Assembly: GCA_016839805.1 (NCBI GenBank)
Contig: JAEOTO010000036.1
Span: forward strand, 33,008 to 97,007
DNA: 64,000 nt
From: Candidatus Hermodarchaeota archaeon
GTDB lineage: Archaea > Asgardarchaeota > Hermodarchaeia > Hermodarchaeales > Hermodarchaeaceae
Direction of reading: 5' to 3'
Below, one piece after another: positions 32,847 through 41,468 of the stretch. The position numbers were made by a program, and so were the translations under genes. The stretch's first letter is position 1, and each line of letters begins with the position of its first letter. Below the pieces are notes generated by a model. That model was not told the origin of the DNA. It ran no database searches and saw only the letters and a program-made list of their open reading frames with translations.

Positions 32847-33452
32847 ATGGCTGATTTTGAAAAATACCATATTCAACGGGGACACGTCATGCGTGTTCCC
32901 GAAGAGATGAATAATGATTTTGGTGACGGTGATTGTTATCTTGTTGATACAGGACCACTCATCTATCTGTGGTGCGGAAGCAGAGCCACCGTTGATGAGC
33001 GCTTCATTGGTGCAGTCACCTCAGTCTGGCGTGACCAAGCCCGCGAAGGTGTAGCGCGCCTTGTCACCGTGGAGGCTCGAAGTGAACCCCCTGCATTCCT
33101 GGACCTTTTTGGTGGTAAAATTTACGTCACCGACCAAGATACCGAGGGCATATTGAAGAAAGTCATCTTAGAGAAACACGAGTTCAAACTTTTCCGGTTA
33201 AACATCGTAGGAGGTGTCCATCTTTTCATCGAGGTTCCCCGTGACCGAAATAGCCTCAAATCTGATGATGTCTATATCCTCGACACATTCGATAAGATCT
33301 ATATCTGGCGTGGTAGTTCCTCAACGGGACATGAAAAATTCCATGCGATGCTCATTGCTCGAAGGTATGACTATGAACGGGCAGGAGCTCAGAACATTGT
33401 ACTGATAGAAGATGGAGAAGAAACAAAAGAATTTTTACAGGCATTAGGATGA
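32847..33452 (+). CDS. two-domain gelsolin/cofilin-like actin-regulator homolog (2DGel-like)
   Basis: 201 aa with two gelsolin-repeat patterns. Repeat 1: DGDCYLVDTGPLIYLWCGSRATVDERF...EPPAFLDLFGGKIYV. Repeat 2: KLFRLN...LKSDDVYILDTFDKIYIWRGSSSTGHEKFHAMLIA...IEDGEETKEFLQAL. Confidence 0.8.
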   Translation: MADFEKYHIQRGHVMRVPEEMNNDFGDGDCYLVDTGPLIYLWCGSRATVDERFIGAVTSVWRDQAREGVARLVTVEARSEPPAFLDLFGGKIYVTDQDTEGILKKVILEKHEFKLFRLNIVGGVHLFIEVPRDRNSLKSDDVYILDTFDKIYIWRGSSSTGHEKFHAMLIARRYDYERAGAQNIVLIEDGEETKEFLQALG

Positions 33453-33905: not shown

Positions 33906-34316
33906 ATGACCAACAACCAAGATCAGCTCGAAGGATTCGTCGCAGATGTTCTATTACCTCGCATTGACGAAGTAATGGATGCTGCAGCTAATGGCGTGGA
34001 TGAAATACAACTCAGGGATCTATTTGCTCGTAACATTTTCGATGCATTGAAGTTTTTCTATGAACGATGGACTTCTGTCTATCTGGATATGCATGGACAG
34101 GAGAAAACAACGCATGCGAGTCGAACACTAGATAAGTTATTTCAGGATGTCATTGAAGTTCCAGAGGAACTATTGCAGGAAACCTTAGTGAAAGCACTCT
34201 GGTATTTGTTAGCGATTAGCCTTGAAGATATGGATAATGTTCCTGTCTTTCCCGACGAGCTCACGTTTACCGGATTAGGATCTGCAATTAAAAATGCGAC
34301 GCGGCGTATATCATAA
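33906..34316 (+). CDS. hypothetical helical protein
   Basis: 136-aa ORF with protein-like composition and no recognisable motif. Confidence 0.45.
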   Translation: MTNNQDQLEGFVADVLLPRIDEVMDAAANGVDEIQLRDLFARNIFDALKFFYERWTSVYLDMHGQEKTTHASRTLDKLFQDVIEVPEELLQETLVKALWYLLAISLEDMDNVPVFPDELTFTGLGSAIKNATRRIS

Positions 34317-36528: not shown

Positions 36529-37494
36529 TTAACGTTTCGTGATATTGAAAGATTTAACACTAGAACCGTGTTTCCTAGATTTACGGGTTTCCTCAAAGCC
36601 CACGCGTTCCTTAATGGTCGGAATGAGTTGAGCATCAATTTCATACCCGTAGCAATTTCGATGTGTTTTCATAGCAACCTTCATTGTCGTGCCAGTGCCA
36701 AGGAAGGGATCAACAATAGTATCACCAATAACTGAAAACATACGGATTAGTCGATAGGCGATTTCTTCAGGAAACGCTGCGATTCGTCGTGAAAGTTGCG
36801 GGTTCTCCTGTCGTGCCCCTGGCAGTTGCCAAATTTGTGTGAACCATGCATTCCTTTCGTCAAGGGTGTAACTGCTAGCATACCTGTACAAATCCTTTGG
36901 TGGAAATGGACGCGAAGAGCCTTTCCGAAAAATGAGAATGAATTCACAATCTTGAGTTATATAGGCATTCGGTGGAAGGAAACCAGATCCAAGAAACGCA
37001 TTGGGACGTTTTGTGGGTTTTTTCCAGAGAATATAAGGGAGACTTGTGAAACCAATTGCTTCGCAATTCTCAATGACTTTGACGTGATTTGGGAAGAGTT
37101 GAAAGTTACCATCGATTTTACGTAATGCATCGCCAATATTAATGCAAGCGATACCACCATCGATTAAAATTCGATAGCATTCTTTCCAAGTCGTTGCGAG
37201 AAAGCTGTGCATGGCATTAAAATCAAAACAGCCCATTGTCTCAAATAGGTCATCCCAGAGTTCAATCATGGGATAAGGAGGCGAGGTTACGATTAGATGA
37301 ACAGAAGAATCTGCCACTTCAGGCATGTGGCGACTATCACCAACTATTAGATGGTGTTTGGTAGAAGGGATTTCTAATTCATTACCTTCAAGCATAATTT
37401 CTAATTGTCGTTCGGGAAAGGTAGCAGACTTTGGTTTCTTCATGGAACGGCGGGTTTTCTTATCGAGCTCACTATGCAAAGTCGCACCATCCAC
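36529..37494 (-). CDS. beta-class N6-adenine/N4-cytosine DNA methyltransferase (N6_N4_Mtase family), no adjacent endonuclease
   Basis: Catalytic motif IV (VHLIVTSPPY) precedes SAM motif I (DPFLGTGTTMKVA...GYEID), which is the beta-class order. The start is either GTG 37494 or ATG 37443. Confidence 0.85.
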   Translation of the reverse strand: MDGATLHSELDKKTRRSMKKPKSATFPERQLEIMLEGNELEIPSTKHHLIVGDSRHMPEVADSSVHLIVTSPPYPMIELWDDLFETMGCFDFNAMHSFLATTWKECYRILIDGGIACINIGDALRKIDGNFQLFPNHVKVIENCEAIGFTSLPYILWKKPTKRPNAFLGSGFLPPNAYITQDCEFILIFRKGSSRPFPPKDLYRYASSYTLDERNAWFTQIWQLPGARQENPQLSRRIAAFPEEIAYRLIRMFSVIGDTIVDPFLGTGTTMKVAMKTHRNCYGYEIDAQLIPTIKERVGFEETRKSRKHGSSVKSFNITKR

Positions 37495-37554: not shown

Positions 37555-38298
37555 CTATAATGAAATAATTAATCGGGCAATGTCTGACTCCGTTAATTCA
37601 AGGATTCCCTTGTTTTCCATATCTTTCAAAACTCGTGTAGTAATCGCTGGAGGCGTTTTTGCTATCCTCTTAATTTCTGCAACAGGAACCTCCTTCTGGT
37701 GGATTAAAACAGCTAGGATATCCAACTCAGGAGGTTCCAATCCTTCCGTTAACAAAAAATCTGCCACAGGATTGTCTTTTCGGATACGGCTAGTTTTTTC
37801 TTTAGCCTTTGCCAAGTCTTCTTCATACCGGGATAAATCTCGTTTCTTTTTAGCATCACGATTCTCAAGCTTACTCTGGAGTTCTCCGAGCTTTGCCTTT
37901 TGAGCTTGTAATCCCATCTGGTGTTCTGCAAGATCTTTTTCTTCTACATTGATTCGACTTTGAGTCTCTATAAGGGTTGCATTTAGCACAGCAATTTGCT
38001 GTTGGTGTTCACTTAGTTCAGTGTATAGTCCAGCAATTTTTGCTTCGATAACACTACCCGTTTCTCGAAGCTGAGCTAGCTGCTCCTGATGATAATTAAT
38101 CATCTCTCGCTGTTCTTGAATTTGTGAATCTGATAGTTGAAATTCTCGTTCAATCCGCGTTAAAATTTGCAGGCTTCCAACAACTTCCTTGACTAATGTG
38201 GAGATTTGGCTGCGAAAGGATTCACGTAGCGCCTTCATGTGGGCTTGGTTTTGTTCCATGACCTGTTGGAGTTGTTTAATTTCTGACATCTTTCTCAC
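37555..38298 (-). CDS. coiled-coil protein with C-terminal winged-helix domain, type A copy 1 (uncharacterised)
   Basis: 247 aa. The first ~170 aa are heptad-rich and rich in Q/E/K/L. The C-terminus KDNPVADFLLTEGLEPPELDILAVLIHQKEVPVAEIKRIAKTPPAITTRVLKDMENKGILEL resembles MarR/TrmB-type wHTH. The start has GGTGA 5 nt upstream and lies 13 nt after the stop of the preceding gene. Confidence 0.75.
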   Translation of the reverse strand: MRKMSEIKQLQQVMEQNQAHMKALRESFRSQISTLVKEVVGSLQILTRIEREFQLSDSQIQEQREMINYHQEQLAQLRETGSVIEAKIAGLYTELSEHQQQIAVLNATLIETQSRINVEEKDLAEHQMGLQAQKAKLGELQSKLENRDAKKKRDLSRYEEDLAKAKEKTSRIRKDNPVADFLLTEGLEPPELDILAVLIHQKEVPVAEIKRIAKTPPAITTRVLKDMENKGILELTESDIARLIISL

Positions 38299-38311
38299 CT
38301 ATTTCATTCCA

Positions 38312-39058
38312 TCACAAATCAATCGAGGAAAGAACCTTGACCTCCCCTGAACCTTTATCAAATTTAACAATTTTTTGTTCGTCCATTTTAATGAGAATTT
38401 CTTTCACCTTGAATCGTCCAATGAATGTAGTTTTCTGGAGGTGATCTATAGTCGTCGATTCCTTCCCCTTGAGTTCTGCAGCCACTTTGGCTTCGGGCAT
38501 TGTAATGATATTTTCTCGAAGAAGATAGCGGAGCGCCTTAAACTTAGCTTCCAATAATTCGGCTTCCATAATAGCTTCAGAAGATTTCGATTCAAGTTGT
38601 TGGATTTTTTCGGTAAATTGATCATCACCGGCAACAAGCTTAGCTTCAATATCAGCTATTATGGCACTATTATTTCGCGATGAACGCTCAATATTCCGAA
38701 TTTGGTCCTCCAAGTTCTCAAGCGTTTTTTGTGCAGCACCAACCTCTTGCTGAAGCTTTTCTCGCTCAGCCCTTGCCTCCTCAATCGCCTTTGTTTGAGT
38801 GGAATCCACAGTCTCAAGCTTACTCTTTTCTCGACTTTCAGCTGTGAGTTCCCCCTCTAATGAGGAAACCTCACGGTTCAACTCTTCTTCAGTCGCTTTC
38901 TTATTTTCCCAAATTTCTTGTAAATGAGCTGATAACTGAAGAAGACGATCAACCTCATTGAGGATAATTTTGAGTTCCTTTTGAGTCGATGTAGCCAATT
39001 CTTTGACAACAGATTGATTCTTCTTAAGCGAGCCCATTAATGAAGGAATTCCAGTCAT
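38312..39058 (-). CDS. coiled-coil protein with C-terminal winged-helix domain, type B copy 1 (uncharacterised)
   Basis: 248 aa. The N-terminus is MTGIPSLMGSLKKN, followed by a long heptad region. The C-terminus is ALRYLLRENIITMPEAKVAAELKGKESTTIDHLQKTTFIGRFKVKEILIKMDEQKIV. Confidence 0.75.
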   Translation of the reverse strand: MTGIPSLMGSLKKNQSVVKELATSTQKELKIILNEVDRLLQLSAHLQEIWENKKATEEELNREVSSLEGELTAESREKSKLETVDSTQTKAIEEARAEREKLQQEVGAAQKTLENLEDQIRNIERSSRNNSAIIADIEAKLVAGDDQFTEKIQQLESKSSEAIMEAELLEAKFKALRYLLRENIITMPEAKVAAELKGKESTTIDHLQKTTFIGRFKVKEILIKMDEQKIVKFDKGSGEVKVLSSIDL

Positions 39059-39169
39059 GAATCACAACCTTCCAATTCATCATTTAGTATTCTATTCTAA
39101 CCTAGATAATTGAAGTTCCTTAGTAATGAAATCCCTAAAGGATTTTGCTATTCGTGGTCCTTTGAGAGT

Positions 39170-39907
39170 TTAGAGGGGCTTAAGAAATCTGATATTTCCA
39201 TCAGTTTGGATCGTAATAATGCCCTTTGATTGCAATGAATTAACCAAATCGTTTGCGGCTTCTATGGATATTTTACTCTCACTTCGAAGTTTATTCAAGG
39301 TTACTTCGGTTTTTTGAATCAATAACGCTAAGAAATTAACTTCCGGTACGTTACGAAGACCCTCATTAAGAAGATAATCGATAACCACATTTTCCTTGCG
39401 TAATTCTCGAAGCGAACGCTCCGCTTCATCGCGTTCATGACGCGAGGCAGCAATAGTTGTCTCGTTAGCTTCGCGAGTCTGCTTGATCCTCATCTCGACA
39501 CTTTGAACCTGGTTCATGATTTCTTGTAGCTCCATTCTACGCTGGGAGTTTTGTTCCTCGAGTTTCTCTAGCTGCTTTTGAATGCTAGAGAGCTCTTTTT
39601 CATTCGTTCGTACTTGTTGCTTCAATTTCTCAATCGATAATTGTAATCTATCCCTTTCCTTTTCTAATGCCAAGTTCATTTTCTCTGAATCTTTGATTTT
39701 GCGTTTCGTTTCAGCCAACACATCTTTTCGCTTTTCAATCTGAATACCAAAATCGTCTAATTCTTTTTCGACATAAACTAGTCTTTGATCAACATCCTTG
39801 GCGAATTGTAGGAGTTCGGTAAGTTGGTCAGTAGTAGATTGTCGATATGTATCGATATTATTTCGTGCCCGATCAATGAGTTCAGCAATTTTTAGTAATT
39901 CTTTCAT
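39170..39907 (-). CDS. coiled-coil protein with C-terminal winged-helix domain, type A copy 2 (uncharacterised)
   Basis: 245 aa. The C-terminus KENVVIDYLLNEGLRNVPEVNFLALLIQKTEVTLNKLRSESKISIEAANDLVNSLQSKGIITI aligns with type A copy 1. The start lies 11 nt after the upstream stop, with GAGGGG upstream. Confidence 0.75.
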   Translation of the reverse strand: MKELLKIAELIDRARNNIDTYRQSTTDQLTELLQFAKDVDQRLVYVEKELDDFGIQIEKRKDVLAETKRKIKDSEKMNLALEKERDRLQLSIEKLKQQVRTNEKELSSIQKQLEKLEEQNSQRRMELQEIMNQVQSVEMRIKQTREANETTIAASRHERDEAERSLRELRKENVVIDYLLNEGLRNVPEVNFLALLIQKTEVTLNKLRSESKISIEAANDLVNSLQSKGIITIQTDGNIRFLKPL

Positions 39908-39918
39908 CGGTGTCCCCT

Positions 39919-40671
39919 CTATGATTCGATCTTGATGGGTTTACGTATCTTAATCGTTCCACTTTCTGATTCTATCCGAAGTAAACCCCGTTCAGCAAGT
40001 TGTGCAGCTGCCTTTTCTACTCTATAGCGAGTTAGGTATGTTTCGTCTTGAAGTTCCTGGATTGAGCTTGAACGTTTACCCTGTAGTGCACTCACAATTT
40101 TTGCTTCGGGAGTTGAGAGCATTTCCTCGCGCAGGAGAAATTGTAAAGCCCAATATTTTGATGCCAATTCATCATGTTCCTCTCTGAGGAGATTAATTTC
40201 TTCGGCAAGGTGCTCCATGAGATCCTCTTGGTCTCCTTGAAGAGAGTTCAGTTCCTTGTCCCGCGCGTTACTTTCTGATCCTTTTTTCTGAAGACTTTCT
40301 TCTGTTGAACGTAAATTCGCATTAGCTCTTTTCAGCTTAGTTTTTACCTCAGATAACTTCAACTCAACAGATTTGAGGGTCTTCTCAGAAATTCTCAAGT
40401 CTTGTTGTTTCGTAGAAATGTTTGTTTGAAGAGAATCACGTACTTCTTGGAGTTTCAAAACTTCTCGTTCTATTTGGACTATCTTTTTCGATAGCGCCTT
40501 CTCCTCTGCCTGTTTCTCTATCCAACGCTTTTTGACTCTATCCGCAACATCTAAGAGTGTATCAAATTCCAGAACGATTCGATTAATCTTTTTTGAGGAA
40601 TCAGTACTCATCTTGGAGAGTTGGCTTCGATTTTTCTTCAATAATGTAATCAGTGACGTTATGGCAGTCAC
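39919..40671 (-). CDS. coiled-coil protein with C-terminal winged-helix domain, type B copy 2 (uncharacterised)
   Basis: The C-terminus ALQFLLREEMLSTPEAKIVSALQGKRSSSIQELQDETYLTRYRVEKAAAQLAERGLL aligns with type B copy 1. I chose the GTG at 40671 because it is preceded by GAGGTG + 6 nt and gives MTAITSLITLLKKN, matching MTGIPSLMGSLKKN of copy 1. The ORF track starts at 40680. Confidence 0.75.
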   Translation of the reverse strand: MTAITSLITLLKKNRSQLSKMSTDSSKKINRIVLEFDTLLDVADRVKKRWIEKQAEEKALSKKIVQIEREVLKLQEVRDSLQTNISTKQQDLRISEKTLKSVELKLSEVKTKLKRANANLRSTEESLQKKGSESNARDKELNSLQGDQEDLMEHLAEEINLLREEHDELASKYWALQFLLREEMLSTPEAKIVSALQGKRSSSIQELQDETYLTRYRVEKAAAQLAERGLLRIESESGTIKIRKPIKIES

Positions 40672-41003
40672 AATCCACACCTCAACTCATGCCGAATCTC
40701 ACTACTTTCTGAAACCGAACTTACTTCAAAAGCTATTTGGTCAAAGGTTATGCTAAAAACCCCGAGGGTCATATTCCGCAATCGCCTTTGTGACAACAGG
40801 GTTATATGCTCAATTACAAAAGAGATAGAGGAAGGTAGTAACAGTGAGTCCTCTAGACGATTCTCTCCAGTTATATCGCAACGGGAATGACAAATGTTCC
40901 AATCTTCCTAAGAGCTGATAATGTAGAAATCGAAATTGCGGAGTTCATCGAGAAATCATCTCTAAAATCGAATTAGAGTTATCGATAAGGTTCATTGAAA
41001 GAA

Positions 41004-41468
41004 TCAGTTAGCCAGAATTCCTTGGGTTTGTTCTAATCGCTCTGAAAATGTTCGAAGTTCACTTGTTAATTCCTTTTGTAAAGAATCAGCCAAAGATCCA
41101 GTTGACCGTTTACGCGAGGATGAACCTTGAGTTAGTTTCTTCACGTCCATAATGCGTTCAAGATATTTAGATACCGCCAAAAGATGCCCCAAGATATCCT
41201 TTGCATACAAATATGTCTGAAATGTTTTCGGATTCTCCAAGTCAATCTTTCCAATTTTACTGTCAAACTCTGAAACATGATCATCATAGATTTGATCGAA
41301 TTGCGTTTTCAAACGCGAAATTCCTTCAATGTTCATTGAATATATGGTCCCCAAGAGTTTACGAAGCCACGAAAGGGCTTCGGGTAAGTCCTCTGGTATA
41401 TCAGAATTAATCGTGCGTCGGCGAGGTTTTCGGCTCTTCTGTGGAGTCCTCCGACTACTCTTACTCAT
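41004..41468 (-). CDS. hypothetical helical protein with a strongly basic N-terminus
   Basis: 154 aa, starting MSKSSRRTPQKSRKPRRRT, then predicted helices. No known motif. A decayed copy of this gene lies 480 bp upstream. Confidence 0.55.
   Translation of the reverse strand: MSKSSRRTPQKSRKPRRRTINSDIPEDLPEALSWLRKLLGTIYSMNIEGISRLKTQFDQIYDDHVSEFDSKIGKIDLENPKTFQTYLYAKDILGHLLAVSKYLERIMDVKKLTQGSSSRKRSTGSLADSLQKELTSELRTFSERLEQTQGILAN

What the first reader, a model, noticed from the sequence alone, without database searches (positions are those of the whole stretch)
37555..40671. Tandem B-A-B-A array of four ~250-aa coiled-coil proteins, each ending in a winged-helix domain, organised as two translationally coupled pairs
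Seen in sequence: four consecutive minus-strand genes encode proteins of 245-250 aa with one shared architecture. Each has about 170 aa of heptad-rich Q/E/K/L helix followed by a ~65-aa MarR/TrmB-like wHTH. They fall into two paralog types that alternate.

- Type B (38312-39058 and 39919-40671) shares the N-terminus MT[GA]I[PT]SL..LKKN and the C-terminal AL[RQ][YF]LLRE....PEAK...L.GK.S.
- Type A (37555-38298 and 39170-39907) shares K[DE]N.V.D[FY]LL.EGL....[LF]LA[VL]LI...EV........KGI.

Within each pair the B stop and A start are 11-13 nt apart, with a GGTGA or GAGGGG Shine-Dalgarno-like motif. The pairs are 111 nt apart. The copies are strongly diverged, so this is an old duplication of a two-gene cassette, and that argues for selection on both partners.

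I do not recognise the family. Inference: the layout suggests obligate A-B heteromeric coiled coils. A helical coiled-coil core plus a C-terminal wH is the architecture of crenarchaeal CdvB (ESCRT-III core plus a wH that docks CdvA) and is reminiscent of PspA/Vipp1-like polymers. Alternatives are DNA-bridging or chromatin-organising proteins, or an unusual regulator family. In a genome with gelsolin-, Sec23/24- and longin-like proteins, a new filament, membrane-remodelling or chromosome-organisation module is plausible.
Basis: partly seen in the sequence, partly recalled or inferred. Interest (0 to 1): 0.8.

Follow-up and report, generated by a model that had tools for sequence, protein, structure and literature searches.

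The report
Paired coiled-coil winged-helix proteins of Asgard archaea
Four neighbouring genes in this Hermodarchaeial genome are two copies of a two-gene unit found across Asgard archaea, encoding two related 26-nm rod-shaped proteins that each end in a DNA-regulator-type domain and probably pair with each other; the family is unnamed and its function unknown, but it is not an ESCRT-III/PspA-like membrane remodeller.

Summary
Four minus-strand genes (B2-A2-B1-A1) encode collinear paralogues of about 245-250 aa. Each is one unbroken helix of about 175-180 residues with heptad periodicity, followed by a C-terminal MarR/Lrp-like winged helix (wH). Corrections: A1 most likely starts at ATG 38289 (244 aa), and B2 starts at a GTG.

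The B-then-A pair is the conserved unit. It was present in all 24 fetched loci, including Odinarchaeum, with unrelated neighbours. Named members come from Hermod, Thor, Odin, Baldr, Njord, Heimdall, Hod, Ran and Loki-type lineages. No Pfam or NCBIfam model and no paper was found. Rod length is fixed: wH begins at residue 189±2-3 in both types, although the coils are only 18-20% identical.

Heptad breaks fall at the same places in A and B. Interhelical charge pairing favours a parallel, in-register A:B heterodimer, but only weakly. The ESCRT-III/PspA analogy fails: no hairpin, and no Snf7/PspA profile or fold match.

Best reading, at moderate confidence: a heterodimeric rod with two juxtaposed wHTH domains at one end, acting as a fixed-length DNA-anchored tether or regulator. 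A palindromic element (CAAAA-N3-TTTTG) is conserved upstream of the B1-type gene in most Hermod-clade loci.

The parts
39919..40671 (-). B2: type-B subunit, 250 aa, GTG start. Coiled-coil rod plus C-terminal winged helix (about nt 39922-40113).
   Evidence: ORF. Orthologues are 250 aa and begin MTAI.SL. B-family HMM scores 274 bits. MarR_2 scores 19.6 bits, sub-threshold. A GAGGTG Shine-Dalgarno-like motif lies upstream.
39170..39907 (-). A2: type-A subunit, 245 aa, starting 11 nt after the B2 stop. Rod plus C-terminal winged helix (about nt 39173-39352).
   Evidence: A-family HMM scores 257 bits. TrmB scores 20.8 bits. An orthologue is P0093.
38312..39058 (-). B1: type-B subunit, 248 aa. A single helix over residues 3-181 plus a winged helix over residues 187-242 (about nt 38315-38500).
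   Evidence: AF2 pLDDT 85.6. There are 37 orthologues at >=54% identity. Foldseek hits the MarR/OhrR wH.
37555..38289 (-). Helix over residues 2-172 and 174-182, plus a winged helix over residues 188-240 (about nt 37558-37743).
   Evidence: An identical 244-aa NCBI protein, P0038, and orthologues of 244-245 aa. AF2 pLDDT 87.1. MarR_2 scores 28.8 bits, above the cutoff.
39132..39149 (-). Conserved cis element AGCAAAATCCTTTAGGGA in the A2-B1 gap, 74 nt upstream of the B1 ATG. It is a slightly decayed copy of the palindromic element AGCAAAACCCTTTTGG(G/A)A. Candidate operator or promoter element.
   Evidence: It is the only alignable block in the B1-type upstream regions. The core CAAAA-N3-TTTTG occurs 18 times in 323 kb of fetched DNA (0.7 expected), 17 of them at this site upstream of a B1-type gene. 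It occurs only once in the window.
40727..40739 (-). Related element CAAATAGCTTTTG, 56 nt upstream of the B2 GTG. Candidate operator or promoter of the B2-A2 pair.
   Evidence: Conserved as GACCAAA(T/C)AGCTTTT in the orthologous B2 upstream regions. It is the single match in the window. On its own the window match is not statistically significant.
41004..41468 (-). 154-aa helical protein with a basic N-terminal tail, immediately upstream on the same strand. A frequent neighbour in the Hermod clade; whether it belongs to the system is uncertain.
   Evidence: A gene of the same size sits upstream of the pair in L001-L004, L008, L009 and the JGI contig. It is absent in L005 and in the Odin, L011 and L012 contexts. 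It has no family hit.

Best explanation
A and B are ancient paralogues that are co-transcribed in the order B then A. They most likely assemble 1:1 into a parallel, in-register, two-stranded coiled-coil rod about 26 nm long.

This arrangement places the two MarR/Lrp-type winged-helix-turn-helix domains side by side at the C-terminal end. There they would form a bipartite head, most probably DNA-binding. The conserved, type-specific N-terminal tips (B: MT.I.SL..LKKNQ; A: M.EI..LQ..LEQNQ) lie at the far end.

The rod would act as a fixed-length spacer that links a DNA site to something about 26 nm away, or that positions the two wH domains. The palindrome conserved upstream of the operon in the Hermod clade is a candidate binding site for autoregulation.

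In this genome the cassette was duplicated long ago, giving two diverged pairs (B2-A2 and B1-A1) that each keep their own upstream element.

Shown: paralogy, architecture, conserved pairing of the genes, fixed rod length, phyletic spread, and the type of wH.

Inferred: heterodimerisation, parallel orientation, DNA binding, and the tether or regulator role.
For: **Gene pairing**
- B-then-A on one strand in 24 of 24 loci, with gaps of 2-22 nt.
- This includes Odinarchaeum yellowstonii LCB_4 and two other distant contexts whose neighbours are unrelated.

**Two ancient types**
- About 46 full-length clusters of 242-254 aa split roughly half A-type and half B-type.
- A and B are reciprocally monophyletic, with mirrored internal topology.

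**Fixed rod length**
- wH helix 1 begins at residue 189.2±2.6 in A (n=26) and 189.0±1.5 in B (n=27).
- This holds despite only 18-20% coil identity within each type.

**Register**
- Hydrophobic profiles of A and B correlate at r=0.83 in register. At a +/-7 shift the values are 0.65-0.71, and at other shifts <=0.27.
- Independent register assignment puts stutter-type breaks at the same places in both types, about 28 and about 146-151.

**Charge pairing (weak evidence)**
- Over residues 29-145 in 9 cognate pairs, parallel in-register A:B scores a mean of +3.1.
- That is the best of 9 parallel shifts (others -2.6 to +1.2) and 10 antiparallel registers (-1.9 to +1.2).
- A:A scores -0.2 and B:B scores -2.4.

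**Type of wH**
- wH profiles match MarR/EmrR, YusO, Lrp/AsnC and Lrs14 DNA-binding regulators at E=1.5e-5 to 1e-4.
- Foldseek top hits are MarR, OhrR, IclR and TrmBL2.
- Basic residues are conserved in the recognition helix and in strand 3 of the wing.

**Candidate operator**
- A palindromic element occurs once per locus, always upstream of the B1-type gene. Observed 18 (17 of them at this site), expected 0.7.
Against: - No multimer model or experiment exists. Heterodimerisation and orientation rest on indirect evidence.
- The charge-pairing signal is small, and 5 of the 9 pairs are orthologues of one another.
- The two stutters are mirror-symmetric about the rod midpoint (28 versus 176-149=27). 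This would also suit antiparallel pairing, or antiparallel lateral association of dimers.
- The wH domains are close to electrically neutral: A mean -0.9 (range -7 to +4), B mean +1.0. The B1 rod is strongly acidic at -14. This argues against non-specific chromatin coating and leaves protein binding possible.
- The palindrome was found only in the Hermod clade. It is absent upstream of the Odin, L011 and L012 pairs. It could instead be a promoter element or the site of another regulator.
- In the window itself one arm of the palindrome has decayed (TTTAG).
Confidence: 0.4

Rival explanations
1. A non-DNA structural or adaptor rod. The A-B coiled coil is a cytoskeletal ruler or scaffold, and its wH domains serve as protein-protein interaction modules, as they do in cullins, ESCRT-II, PCI proteins or CdvB. 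The rod might assemble head-to-tail or laterally into filaments, in the manner of intermediate filaments or tropomyosin.
For: - The wH domains are near-neutral and the B1 rod is acidic.
- The B-type wH profile also hits cullin-2 wH at E=0.004. Foldseek lists cullin WHB and COP9/eIF3 PCI wH domains.
- Rod length is conserved to within 2-3 residues across classes. Conserved N-terminal tips and mirror-symmetric stutters resemble fixed-length rods that assemble further, such as keratin type I/II heterodimers.
- The pair is pan-Asgard and present even in the 1.4-Mb Odin genome.
Against: - The best sequence and fold matches of both wH types are DNA-binding MarR/Lrp regulators, about 100-fold better than cullin.
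- No cytoskeletal or membrane-trafficking gene is consistently linked. The gelsolin gene 4 kb away (4.1 kb) is synteny within the Hermod clade only.
- There is no evidence of filament formation.
Confidence: 0.25
2. An antiparallel A-B (or A-A/B-B) dumbbell. The two rods pair head-to-tail, so one wH sits at each end about 26 nm apart and bridges two DNA segments or two partners. This would be a long version of Sso10a-type wH plus antiparallel coiled-coil chromatin proteins.
For: - The stutters lie at about 28 and about 149 of a 176-residue rod, mirror-symmetric in both types. An antiparallel full-overlap dimer requires this, whereas a parallel dimer does not.
- The type-specific N-terminal tips could dock onto the partner's junction or wH.
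- Sso10a offers a precedent (PMC4941522, seen).
Against: - Charge pairing across 10 antiparallel registers is no better than random, -1.9 to +1.2, against +3.1 for parallel in-register.
- That test is coarse.
Confidence: 0.12
3. Ordinary transcription factors. The proteins are heterodimeric MarR-like regulators in which the long coil is simply a dimerisation device, and they control a small regulon that includes their own operon.
For: - PGAP names one A orthologue "MarR family transcriptional regulator", and A1 passes the MarR_2 cutoff.
- A palindrome is conserved upstream of the operon.
- Coiled-coil rulers that space wHTH domains are known, for example BusR (PMC8517857, seen).
Against: - A 175-residue rod whose length is conserved to within 2-3 residues across Asgard classes is far more than dimerisation needs.
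- Canonical MarR proteins have N- and C-terminal dimerisation helices flanking the wH. Here nothing follows the wH.
- Universal retention of two distinct paralogues in a fixed order is unusual for a local regulator.
Confidence: 0.15
4. An ESCRT-III/CdvB- or PspA/Vipp1-like membrane-remodelling polymer, with a wH that docks a partner.
For: - There is a superficial similarity of layout: a helical N-terminal part of about 170 aa plus a C-terminal wH, as in CdvB.
- Proteins with a coiled coil and a wH are reported in some archaeal ESCRT loci (arCOG09748; PMC10936438).
Against: - AF2 shows one continuous helix with no hairpin, and no conserved Gly/Pro turn.
- No Snf7 or PspA_IM30 hit at E<=1.
- No ESCRT-III or PspA structure appears among the Foldseek matches.
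- The CdvB wH 2xvc scores E=0.52, not significant.
- No Vps4, ESCRT-III or CdvA gene lies near any of the loci inspected.
Confidence: 0.03

Closest known systems
Hop2-Mnd1 (eukaryotic recombination cofactor; crystal structure PMC4402518)
   Same: Two paralogous subunits of about 200-250 aa form an obligate parallel coiled-coil heterodimer, a rod with two juxtaposed winged-helix domains at one end that together bind DNA.
   Different: - In Hop2-Mnd1 the wH domains are N-terminal; here they are C-terminal.
- That rod is three leucine zippers with two kinks; here there is one continuous helix of about 175 residues with two stutters.
- There is no significant sequence similarity: Mnd1 wH scores E=0.13, and there are no TBPIP or Mnd1 Pfam hits.
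- This is an analogy of design, not membership.
MarR / Lrp-AsnC / Lrs14 / TrmB winged-helix regulators
   Same: The C-terminal domain is this kind of wHTH. Profile hits reach E about 1e-5, A1 passes the Pfam MarR_2 cutoff, and Foldseek top hits are of this type.
   Different: - Those regulators are proteins of about 140-170 aa (TrmB is longer, with the wH N-terminal) that homodimerise through short helices flanking the wH.
- Here the wH is the extreme C-terminus of a 26-nm rod.
- Here two distinct paralogues are always encoded together.
CdvB (crenarchaeal ESCRT-III with a C-terminal wH) and PspA/Vipp1
   Same: Similar overall size, and a helical part followed by a wH (CdvB).
   Different: No helical hairpin, no Snf7 or PspA profile or fold match, no specific similarity to the CdvB wH, and no Vps4 or CdvA linkage.
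Sso10a/Sul10a and coiled-coil 'ruler' wHTH proteins such as BusR
   Same: wHTH domains are held at a defined geometry by a coiled coil. Sso10a bridges and compacts DNA (PMC4941522). The BusR coiled coil acts as a molecular ruler for bipartite sites (PMC8517857).
   Different: - Those are homodimers with an N-terminal wHTH and much shorter coils.
- Sso10a is antiparallel.
- No sequence relationship was tested or seen.
Keratin type I/II heterodimers and tropomyosin (fixed-length heptad rods)
   Same: Obligate or preferred pairing of paralogues, a rod length conserved far better than the sequence, and stutters at fixed positions.
   Different: - Those rods carry no wH domain, and their lengths differ (about 310 aa and 284/248 aa).
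- Only coiled-coil-level Pfam noise was seen (Filament, E=0.12-0.28).
- Filament formation was not tested.

Membership tests
ESCRT-III / CdvB (Snf7 superfamily) | Core alpha1-alpha2 helical hairpin with a Snf7-type profile match | tested here: not met
   AF2 gives a single helix over residues 3-181 (B1) and 2-172 (A1). No Snf7 hit at E<=1. No ESCRT-III chain appears among the listed (top 50) Foldseek PDB matches.
ESCRT-III / CdvB (Snf7 superfamily) | C-terminal wH specifically related to the CdvB wH that binds CdvA | tested here: inconclusive
   The B-type wH profile scores E=0.52 against 2xvc. The A-type profile does not list it. MarR-type wH domains score about 1e-5.
ESCRT-III / CdvB (Snf7 superfamily) | Genomic association with Vps4, CdvA or other ESCRT genes | tested here: not met
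   None lies within about 8 kb in six different contexts: the Hermod synteny block, L005, L010 (Odin), L011, L012 and the JGI contig.
PspA / Vipp1 (IM30) | PspA_IM30 profile match and helical-hairpin fold | tested here: not met
   No PspA_IM30 Pfam hit. The NCBIfam 'pneumo_PspA' hits (8-14 bits against an 850-bit cutoff) are to an unrelated coiled-coil surface protein. AF2 shows no hairpin.
MarR family transcription regulators | wHTH matching the MarR profile | tested here: met
   A1 scores 28.8 bits on MarR_2 against a 27-bit cutoff. B2 scores 19.6 and A2 (TrmB) 20.8, both sub-threshold, and B1 has none. Family wH profiles against MarR/EmrR 3nrv give E=1.5e-5 (A) and 4.1e-5 (B).
MarR family transcription regulators | Protein of about 140-170 aa whose N- and C-terminal helices flank the wH and form the homodimer interface | tested here: not met
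   The wH is the last 60 residues, with nothing after it. About 185 residues of single helix precede it. Two distinct paralogues are always co-encoded.
TrmB family | N-terminal wH followed by a coiled coil and a C-terminal sensor domain | tested here: not met
   The domain order is reversed and there is no sensor domain.
Hop2-Mnd1 | N-terminal wH plus three leucine zippers, with TBPIP or Mnd1 profile matches | tested here: not met
   No TBPIP or Mnd1 Pfam hit. Mnd1 4y66 scores E=0.13 on the wH only. The wH here is C-terminal.
SMC / Rad50 ('chromosome segregation ATPase' in JGI annotation) | ABC-type ATPase head (Walker A/B, signature motif) and a hinge or zinc hook flanking the coiled coil | tested here: not met
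   SMC and Rad50 models score 11-33 bits against cutoffs of 567-1087, and only over coiled-coil segments. The protein is 245-250 aa with no ATPase domain.
Anti-phage defence components (PADLOC) | Match to a defence-system protein model beyond coiled-coil similarity | tested here: not met
   Only weak JetC, LmuB and ZorA coiled-coil matches (<=22 bits). No relatives on viral contigs or in phage records.
Intermediate-filament-like / coiled-coil-rich structural proteins | Long heptad rod with conserved length and stutters | tested here: met
Intermediate-filament-like / coiled-coil-rich structural proteins | Self-assembly into filaments | not testable with these tools
   Needs purified protein and EM.

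The most novel reading that the evidence does not exclude
The B-A pair is an Asgard-wide, Asgard-specific heterodimeric molecular ruler. It anchors chromosomal DNA through its twin wHTH head to a cellular structure (membrane, cytoskeleton or division apparatus) at a fixed distance of about 26 nm. That would make it a primitive DNA-tethering or segregation adaptor, with a design parallel to eukaryotic coiled-coil plus globular-head heterodimers such as Hop2-Mnd1 or the kinetochore rods.
Probability: 0.12. Interest if true: 0.85.

Novelty: new variant of a known kind. Interest (0 to 1): 0.55.

Why it matters
Asgard archaea are the closest known prokaryotic relatives of eukaryotes, and most of their lineage-specific conserved proteins are uncharacterised. 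This pair has several features that make it worth attention:

- It is retained in every Asgard class for which a named member was found, including the reduced 1.4-Mb Odinarchaeum genome.
- It is always encoded as two distinct paralogues in the same order.
- Its rod length is conserved to a few residues while the sequence drifts to below 20% identity.

That pattern marks a core cellular component whose geometry matters, rather than a local regulator.

Defining the family also corrects existing annotation. The current labels are "hypothetical protein", "MarR family regulator" and "chromosome segregation ATPase", and the start codons of B-type genes are often truncated. It removes a tempting but wrong ESCRT-III reading. 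It also supplies concrete reagents for experiments: the two subunits and a 22-bp candidate site. These could be tested in cultured Asgard archaea or in vitro.

Tried and rejected
- **ESCRT-III/PspA reading.** Rejected.
- **SMC/Rad50 and defence-system hits (JetC, LmuB, ZorA).** Rejected as coiled-coil noise far below the cutoffs.
- **Direct PDB sequence search with A1.** Returned only designed coiled coils and chance hits.
- **Functional link to the adjacent N6_N4 DNA methyltransferase, PfkB kinase and gelsolin.** Rejected. These neighbours are conserved only within the Hermod-clade synteny block, and are replaced by unrelated genes in Odin, L011 and L012.
- **Mobile or viral origin.** No relatives on IMG/VR contigs or in phage records.
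- **Genome-collection scan with the broad A-type alignment.** It failed because no stretch was conserved enough. The narrower alignment recovered only 12 Hermod-clade species. The wider distribution therefore rests on the representative search and cluster names.
- **Conserved Asn14 as a buried register-setting residue.** Not pursued. The register in residues 1-28 is ambiguous: Asn14 falls at g in one assignment and next to a stutter in another.
- **The upstream palindrome as a generic promoter motif.** Rejected. It occurs once per locus and nowhere else in the 64-kb window.
- **Literature searches for a description of the family.** Nothing found.

Full report
**1. The observation**

Four consecutive minus-strand ORFs lie at the stated coordinates: 37555-38298, 38312-39058, 39170-39907 and 39919-40671.

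Pairwise BLASTP gives these results:
- B1-B2: 28% identity over the full length, E=2e-25.
- A1-A2: 33% over the C-terminal 87 residues, E=7e-11.
- A2-B2: E=7e-6.
- A1-B1: not significant.

Profiles of the A and B orthologue sets align collinearly over their whole length (hhalign probability 96.7%, E=3e-10). The quoted motifs are present.

Two corrections apply.
- A1 almost certainly starts at ATG 38289, giving 244 aa. An identical NCBI protein is 244 aa and all orthologues are 244-245 aa. The B1-A1 gap is then 22 nt, and the GGTGAGG motif lies just upstream of that ATG.
- B2 starts at GTG 40671. Its orthologues also use GTG or TTG, and automatic gene calls often truncate them to 224-230 aa.

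**2. Architecture**

AlphaFold2 was run with family alignments. It gives pLDDT 85.6 for B1 and 87.1 for A1. Each model is one uninterrupted helix (residues 3-181 in B1, residues 2-172 in A1). A canonical H-E-H-H-E-E winged helix follows.

Conserved hydrophobic positions follow a 3.5-residue periodicity throughout. A dynamic-programming register assignment finds about 150 residues of unbroken heptads shared by all four proteins.

For the wH, Pfam support is uneven. Only A1 passes a cutoff (MarR_2, 28.8 bits against 27), A2 and B2 are sub-threshold, and B1 has nothing. Profiles built from the C-terminal 80 residues of diverse A-type and B-type members do better:
- Both hit MarR/EmrR, YusO, Lrp/AsnC and Lrs14 structures at E about 1e-5 to 1e-4.
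- Cullin-2 wH scores 0.004 and TFE scores 0.014.
- Mnd1 scores 0.13.
- The CdvB wH (2xvc) scores 0.52.

Foldseek against PDB matches only the wH domain, to MarR, OhrR, IclR, TrmBL2, FtsK-gamma and cullin WHB, with the best E about 2e-3.

**3. The ESCRT-III/PspA idea fails**
- There is no helical hairpin in the models.
- No conserved turn-forming position exists in the family.
- No Snf7 or PspA profile hit appears even at E<=1.
- No such fold appears among the Foldseek matches.
- No Vps4 or ESCRT neighbour occurs in any context examined.
- The SMC, Rad50, JetC and LmuB hits are coiled-coil noise at 10-33 bits against cutoffs of hundreds. This also explains the JGI label "chromosome segregation ATPase".

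**4. Distribution and gene order**

The word-indexed searches found only close orthologues, at >=52% identity.

An exhaustive profile search of 1.84 billion representatives used a joint A+B profile. It returned many long coiled-coil proteins, which are noise. Among the top 150 it also returned about 46 clusters of 242-254 aa matched end to end. Local HMMs split these cleanly into about half A-type and half B-type.

Every member that carries a source name is Asgard:
- Hermodarchaeia
- Thorarchaeota
- Odinarchaeum yellowstonii LCB_4
- Baldrarchaeia
- Njordarchaeum
- Heimdallarchaeota
- Hodarchaeales
- Ranarchaeia
- Promethearchaeota

Unnamed metagenomic members could not be placed, so restriction to Asgard is likely but not proven.

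The window itself is Hermodarchaeial. Its closest relative is MAG H03M_Hermod_104, at 91%.

In all 24 loci fetched with enough sequence, a B-type gene is followed on the same strand by an A-type gene, with gaps of 2-22 nt. This includes three distant contexts with unrelated neighbours: Odin L010, Thor-labelled L011 and L012. The methyltransferase-PfkB-Usp-gelsolin neighbourhood is only Hermod-clade synteny.

The four-gene array of the window recurs in at least two other assemblies. Several relatives carry a single pair.

An NJ tree separates A from B. It places (A1-clade, A2-clade) and (B1-clade, B2-clade) as mirrored sisters (distance method only). This supports duplication of the cassette as a unit.

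**5. Evidence on how the two proteins fit together**

Rod length is strikingly fixed. The conserved Glu that opens wH helix 1 sits at residue 189.2±2.6 in A-type (n=26) and 189.0±1.5 in B-type (n=27). Mean coil identity is only 18-20% within types and 14% between them.

The hydrophobic profiles of A and B correlate at r=0.83 in register. Register assignments made separately for A and B place stutter-type breaks at the same positions, about 28 and about 146-151.

A simple count of interhelical charge pairs was made over residues 29-145 in nine cognate pairs:

| Arrangement | Mean net score |
|---|---|
| Parallel in-register A:B | +3.1 |
| Eight other parallel shifts | -2.6 to +1.2 |
| Ten antiparallel registers | -1.9 to +1.2 |
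| A:A | -0.2 |
| B:B | -2.4 |

This favours a parallel in-register heterodimer. The signal is weak, and five of the nine pairs are orthologues of one another.

One feature remains unexplained. The two stutters are mirror-symmetric about the rod midpoint. An antiparallel dimer, or antiparallel lateral packing of dimers, would require this, but a parallel dimer would not.

**6. DNA binding or not**

For:
- The wH type is that of DNA-binding regulators.
- Basic residues are conserved in the recognition helix and the wing.
- In the Hermod clade, the only conserved block in the otherwise unalignable region upstream of B1-type genes is AGCAAAACCCTTTTGG(G/A)A. Its palindromic core is CAAAA-N3-TTTTG.
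- The core occurs 18 times in 323 kb of fetched DNA, against 0.7 expected. Seventeen of these are at this site.
- In the window it lies in the A2-B1 gap at 39132-39149, with one arm decayed. A related CAAATAGCTTTTG lies upstream of B2 at 40727-40739.

Against:
- The wH domains are nearly neutral and the B1 rod is very acidic.
- The element was not seen upstream of the Odin, L011 or L012 pairs.
- It may be a promoter element or another factor's site.

**7. Comparison with known systems**

The closest design is eukaryotic Hop2-Mnd1. That complex is a paralogous parallel coiled-coil heterodimer with two juxtaposed wH domains at one end (PMC4402518). However, its wH domains are N-terminal, its rod is kinked, and there is no sequence relationship.

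The wH itself belongs with the MarR/Lrp-type domains, but the proteins lack the MarR dimerisation fold.

Sso10a (PMC4941522) and BusR (PMC8517857) show that coiled coils can set wHTH geometry. Coiled-coil plus wH proteins in Thermococcal ESCRT loci (arCOG09748, PMC10936438) have extra domains. They could not be compared here.

No Pfam or NCBIfam model covers the family, and no paper describing it was found.

**8. Verdict**

The feature is real and the family is conserved across Asgard archaea. It is best described as a new, unnamed variant of coiled-coil-tethered wHTH proteins that is encoded as an obligate B-A pair.

The most likely mechanism is a parallel heterodimeric 26-nm rod with a twin wHTH head that binds DNA and acts as a fixed-length tether or regulator (confidence about 0.4).

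The rivals are a protein-binding structural rod, an antiparallel bridging dumbbell, a plain regulator, and the ESCRT-III-like reading. The last is effectively excluded.

Noticed in passing
window 41004-41468 (-): A 154-aa protein with a strongly basic N-terminal tail (MSKSSRRTPQKSRKPRRRT...) followed by helices. It matches no family. A gene of the same size sits immediately upstream of the B-A unit in many Hermod-clade loci, but not in L005 or in distant lineages.
   Followed up: partly
window 36529-37494 (-): An N6_N4-type (type II-like) DNA methyltransferase lies directly downstream of A1 with no restriction enzyme nearby. It is conserved in this position throughout the Hermod-clade synteny block and absent next to the pair in Odin, L011 and L012. 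It is probably an orphan methylase.
   Followed up: partly
window 32847-33452 (+): A 201-aa two-repeat gelsolin protein (Pfam Gelsolin E=1.7e-24, plus DUF7904) lies 4 kb (4.1 kb) from the array. A conserved 136-aa protein with no family match sits next to it at 33906-34316. Both are syntenic in relatives.
   Followed up: partly
window 40671; L008 1468 and 3090; L007 86; L009 1578: B-type genes, especially B2-type, use GTG or TTG start codons. PGAP and other callers start them 20-25 codons too late, cutting off the conserved N-terminal motif MT.I.SL..LKKN. The database proteins of 224-230 aa are therefore truncated.
   Followed up: yes
family-wide (alignment of 53 members); window rods, residues about 28 and about 146-151 of each protein: Two heptad stutters sit at the same positions in A-type and B-type proteins, and they are mirror-symmetric about the midpoint of the 176-residue rod. 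This hints at antiparallel lateral association or another symmetric assembly. It remains unexplained.
   Followed up: partly
L011 8001-9493 (GCA_048882505.1): A third, more divergent B-A pair type (B with a RILC/YLSTPE junction, 251-254 aa) lies in a different genomic context in a Thorarchaeota-labelled MAG. Some Asgard genomes may therefore carry several unlinked pairs.
   Followed up: partly
window 39095-39125 (-), in the A2-B1 gap: A short inverted repeat AAAGGA...(16 nt)...TCCTTT overlaps the conserved AGCAAAATCCTTT element just downstream of the A2 stop. It could be a transcript-end hairpin, or simply part of the conserved element.
   Followed up: no
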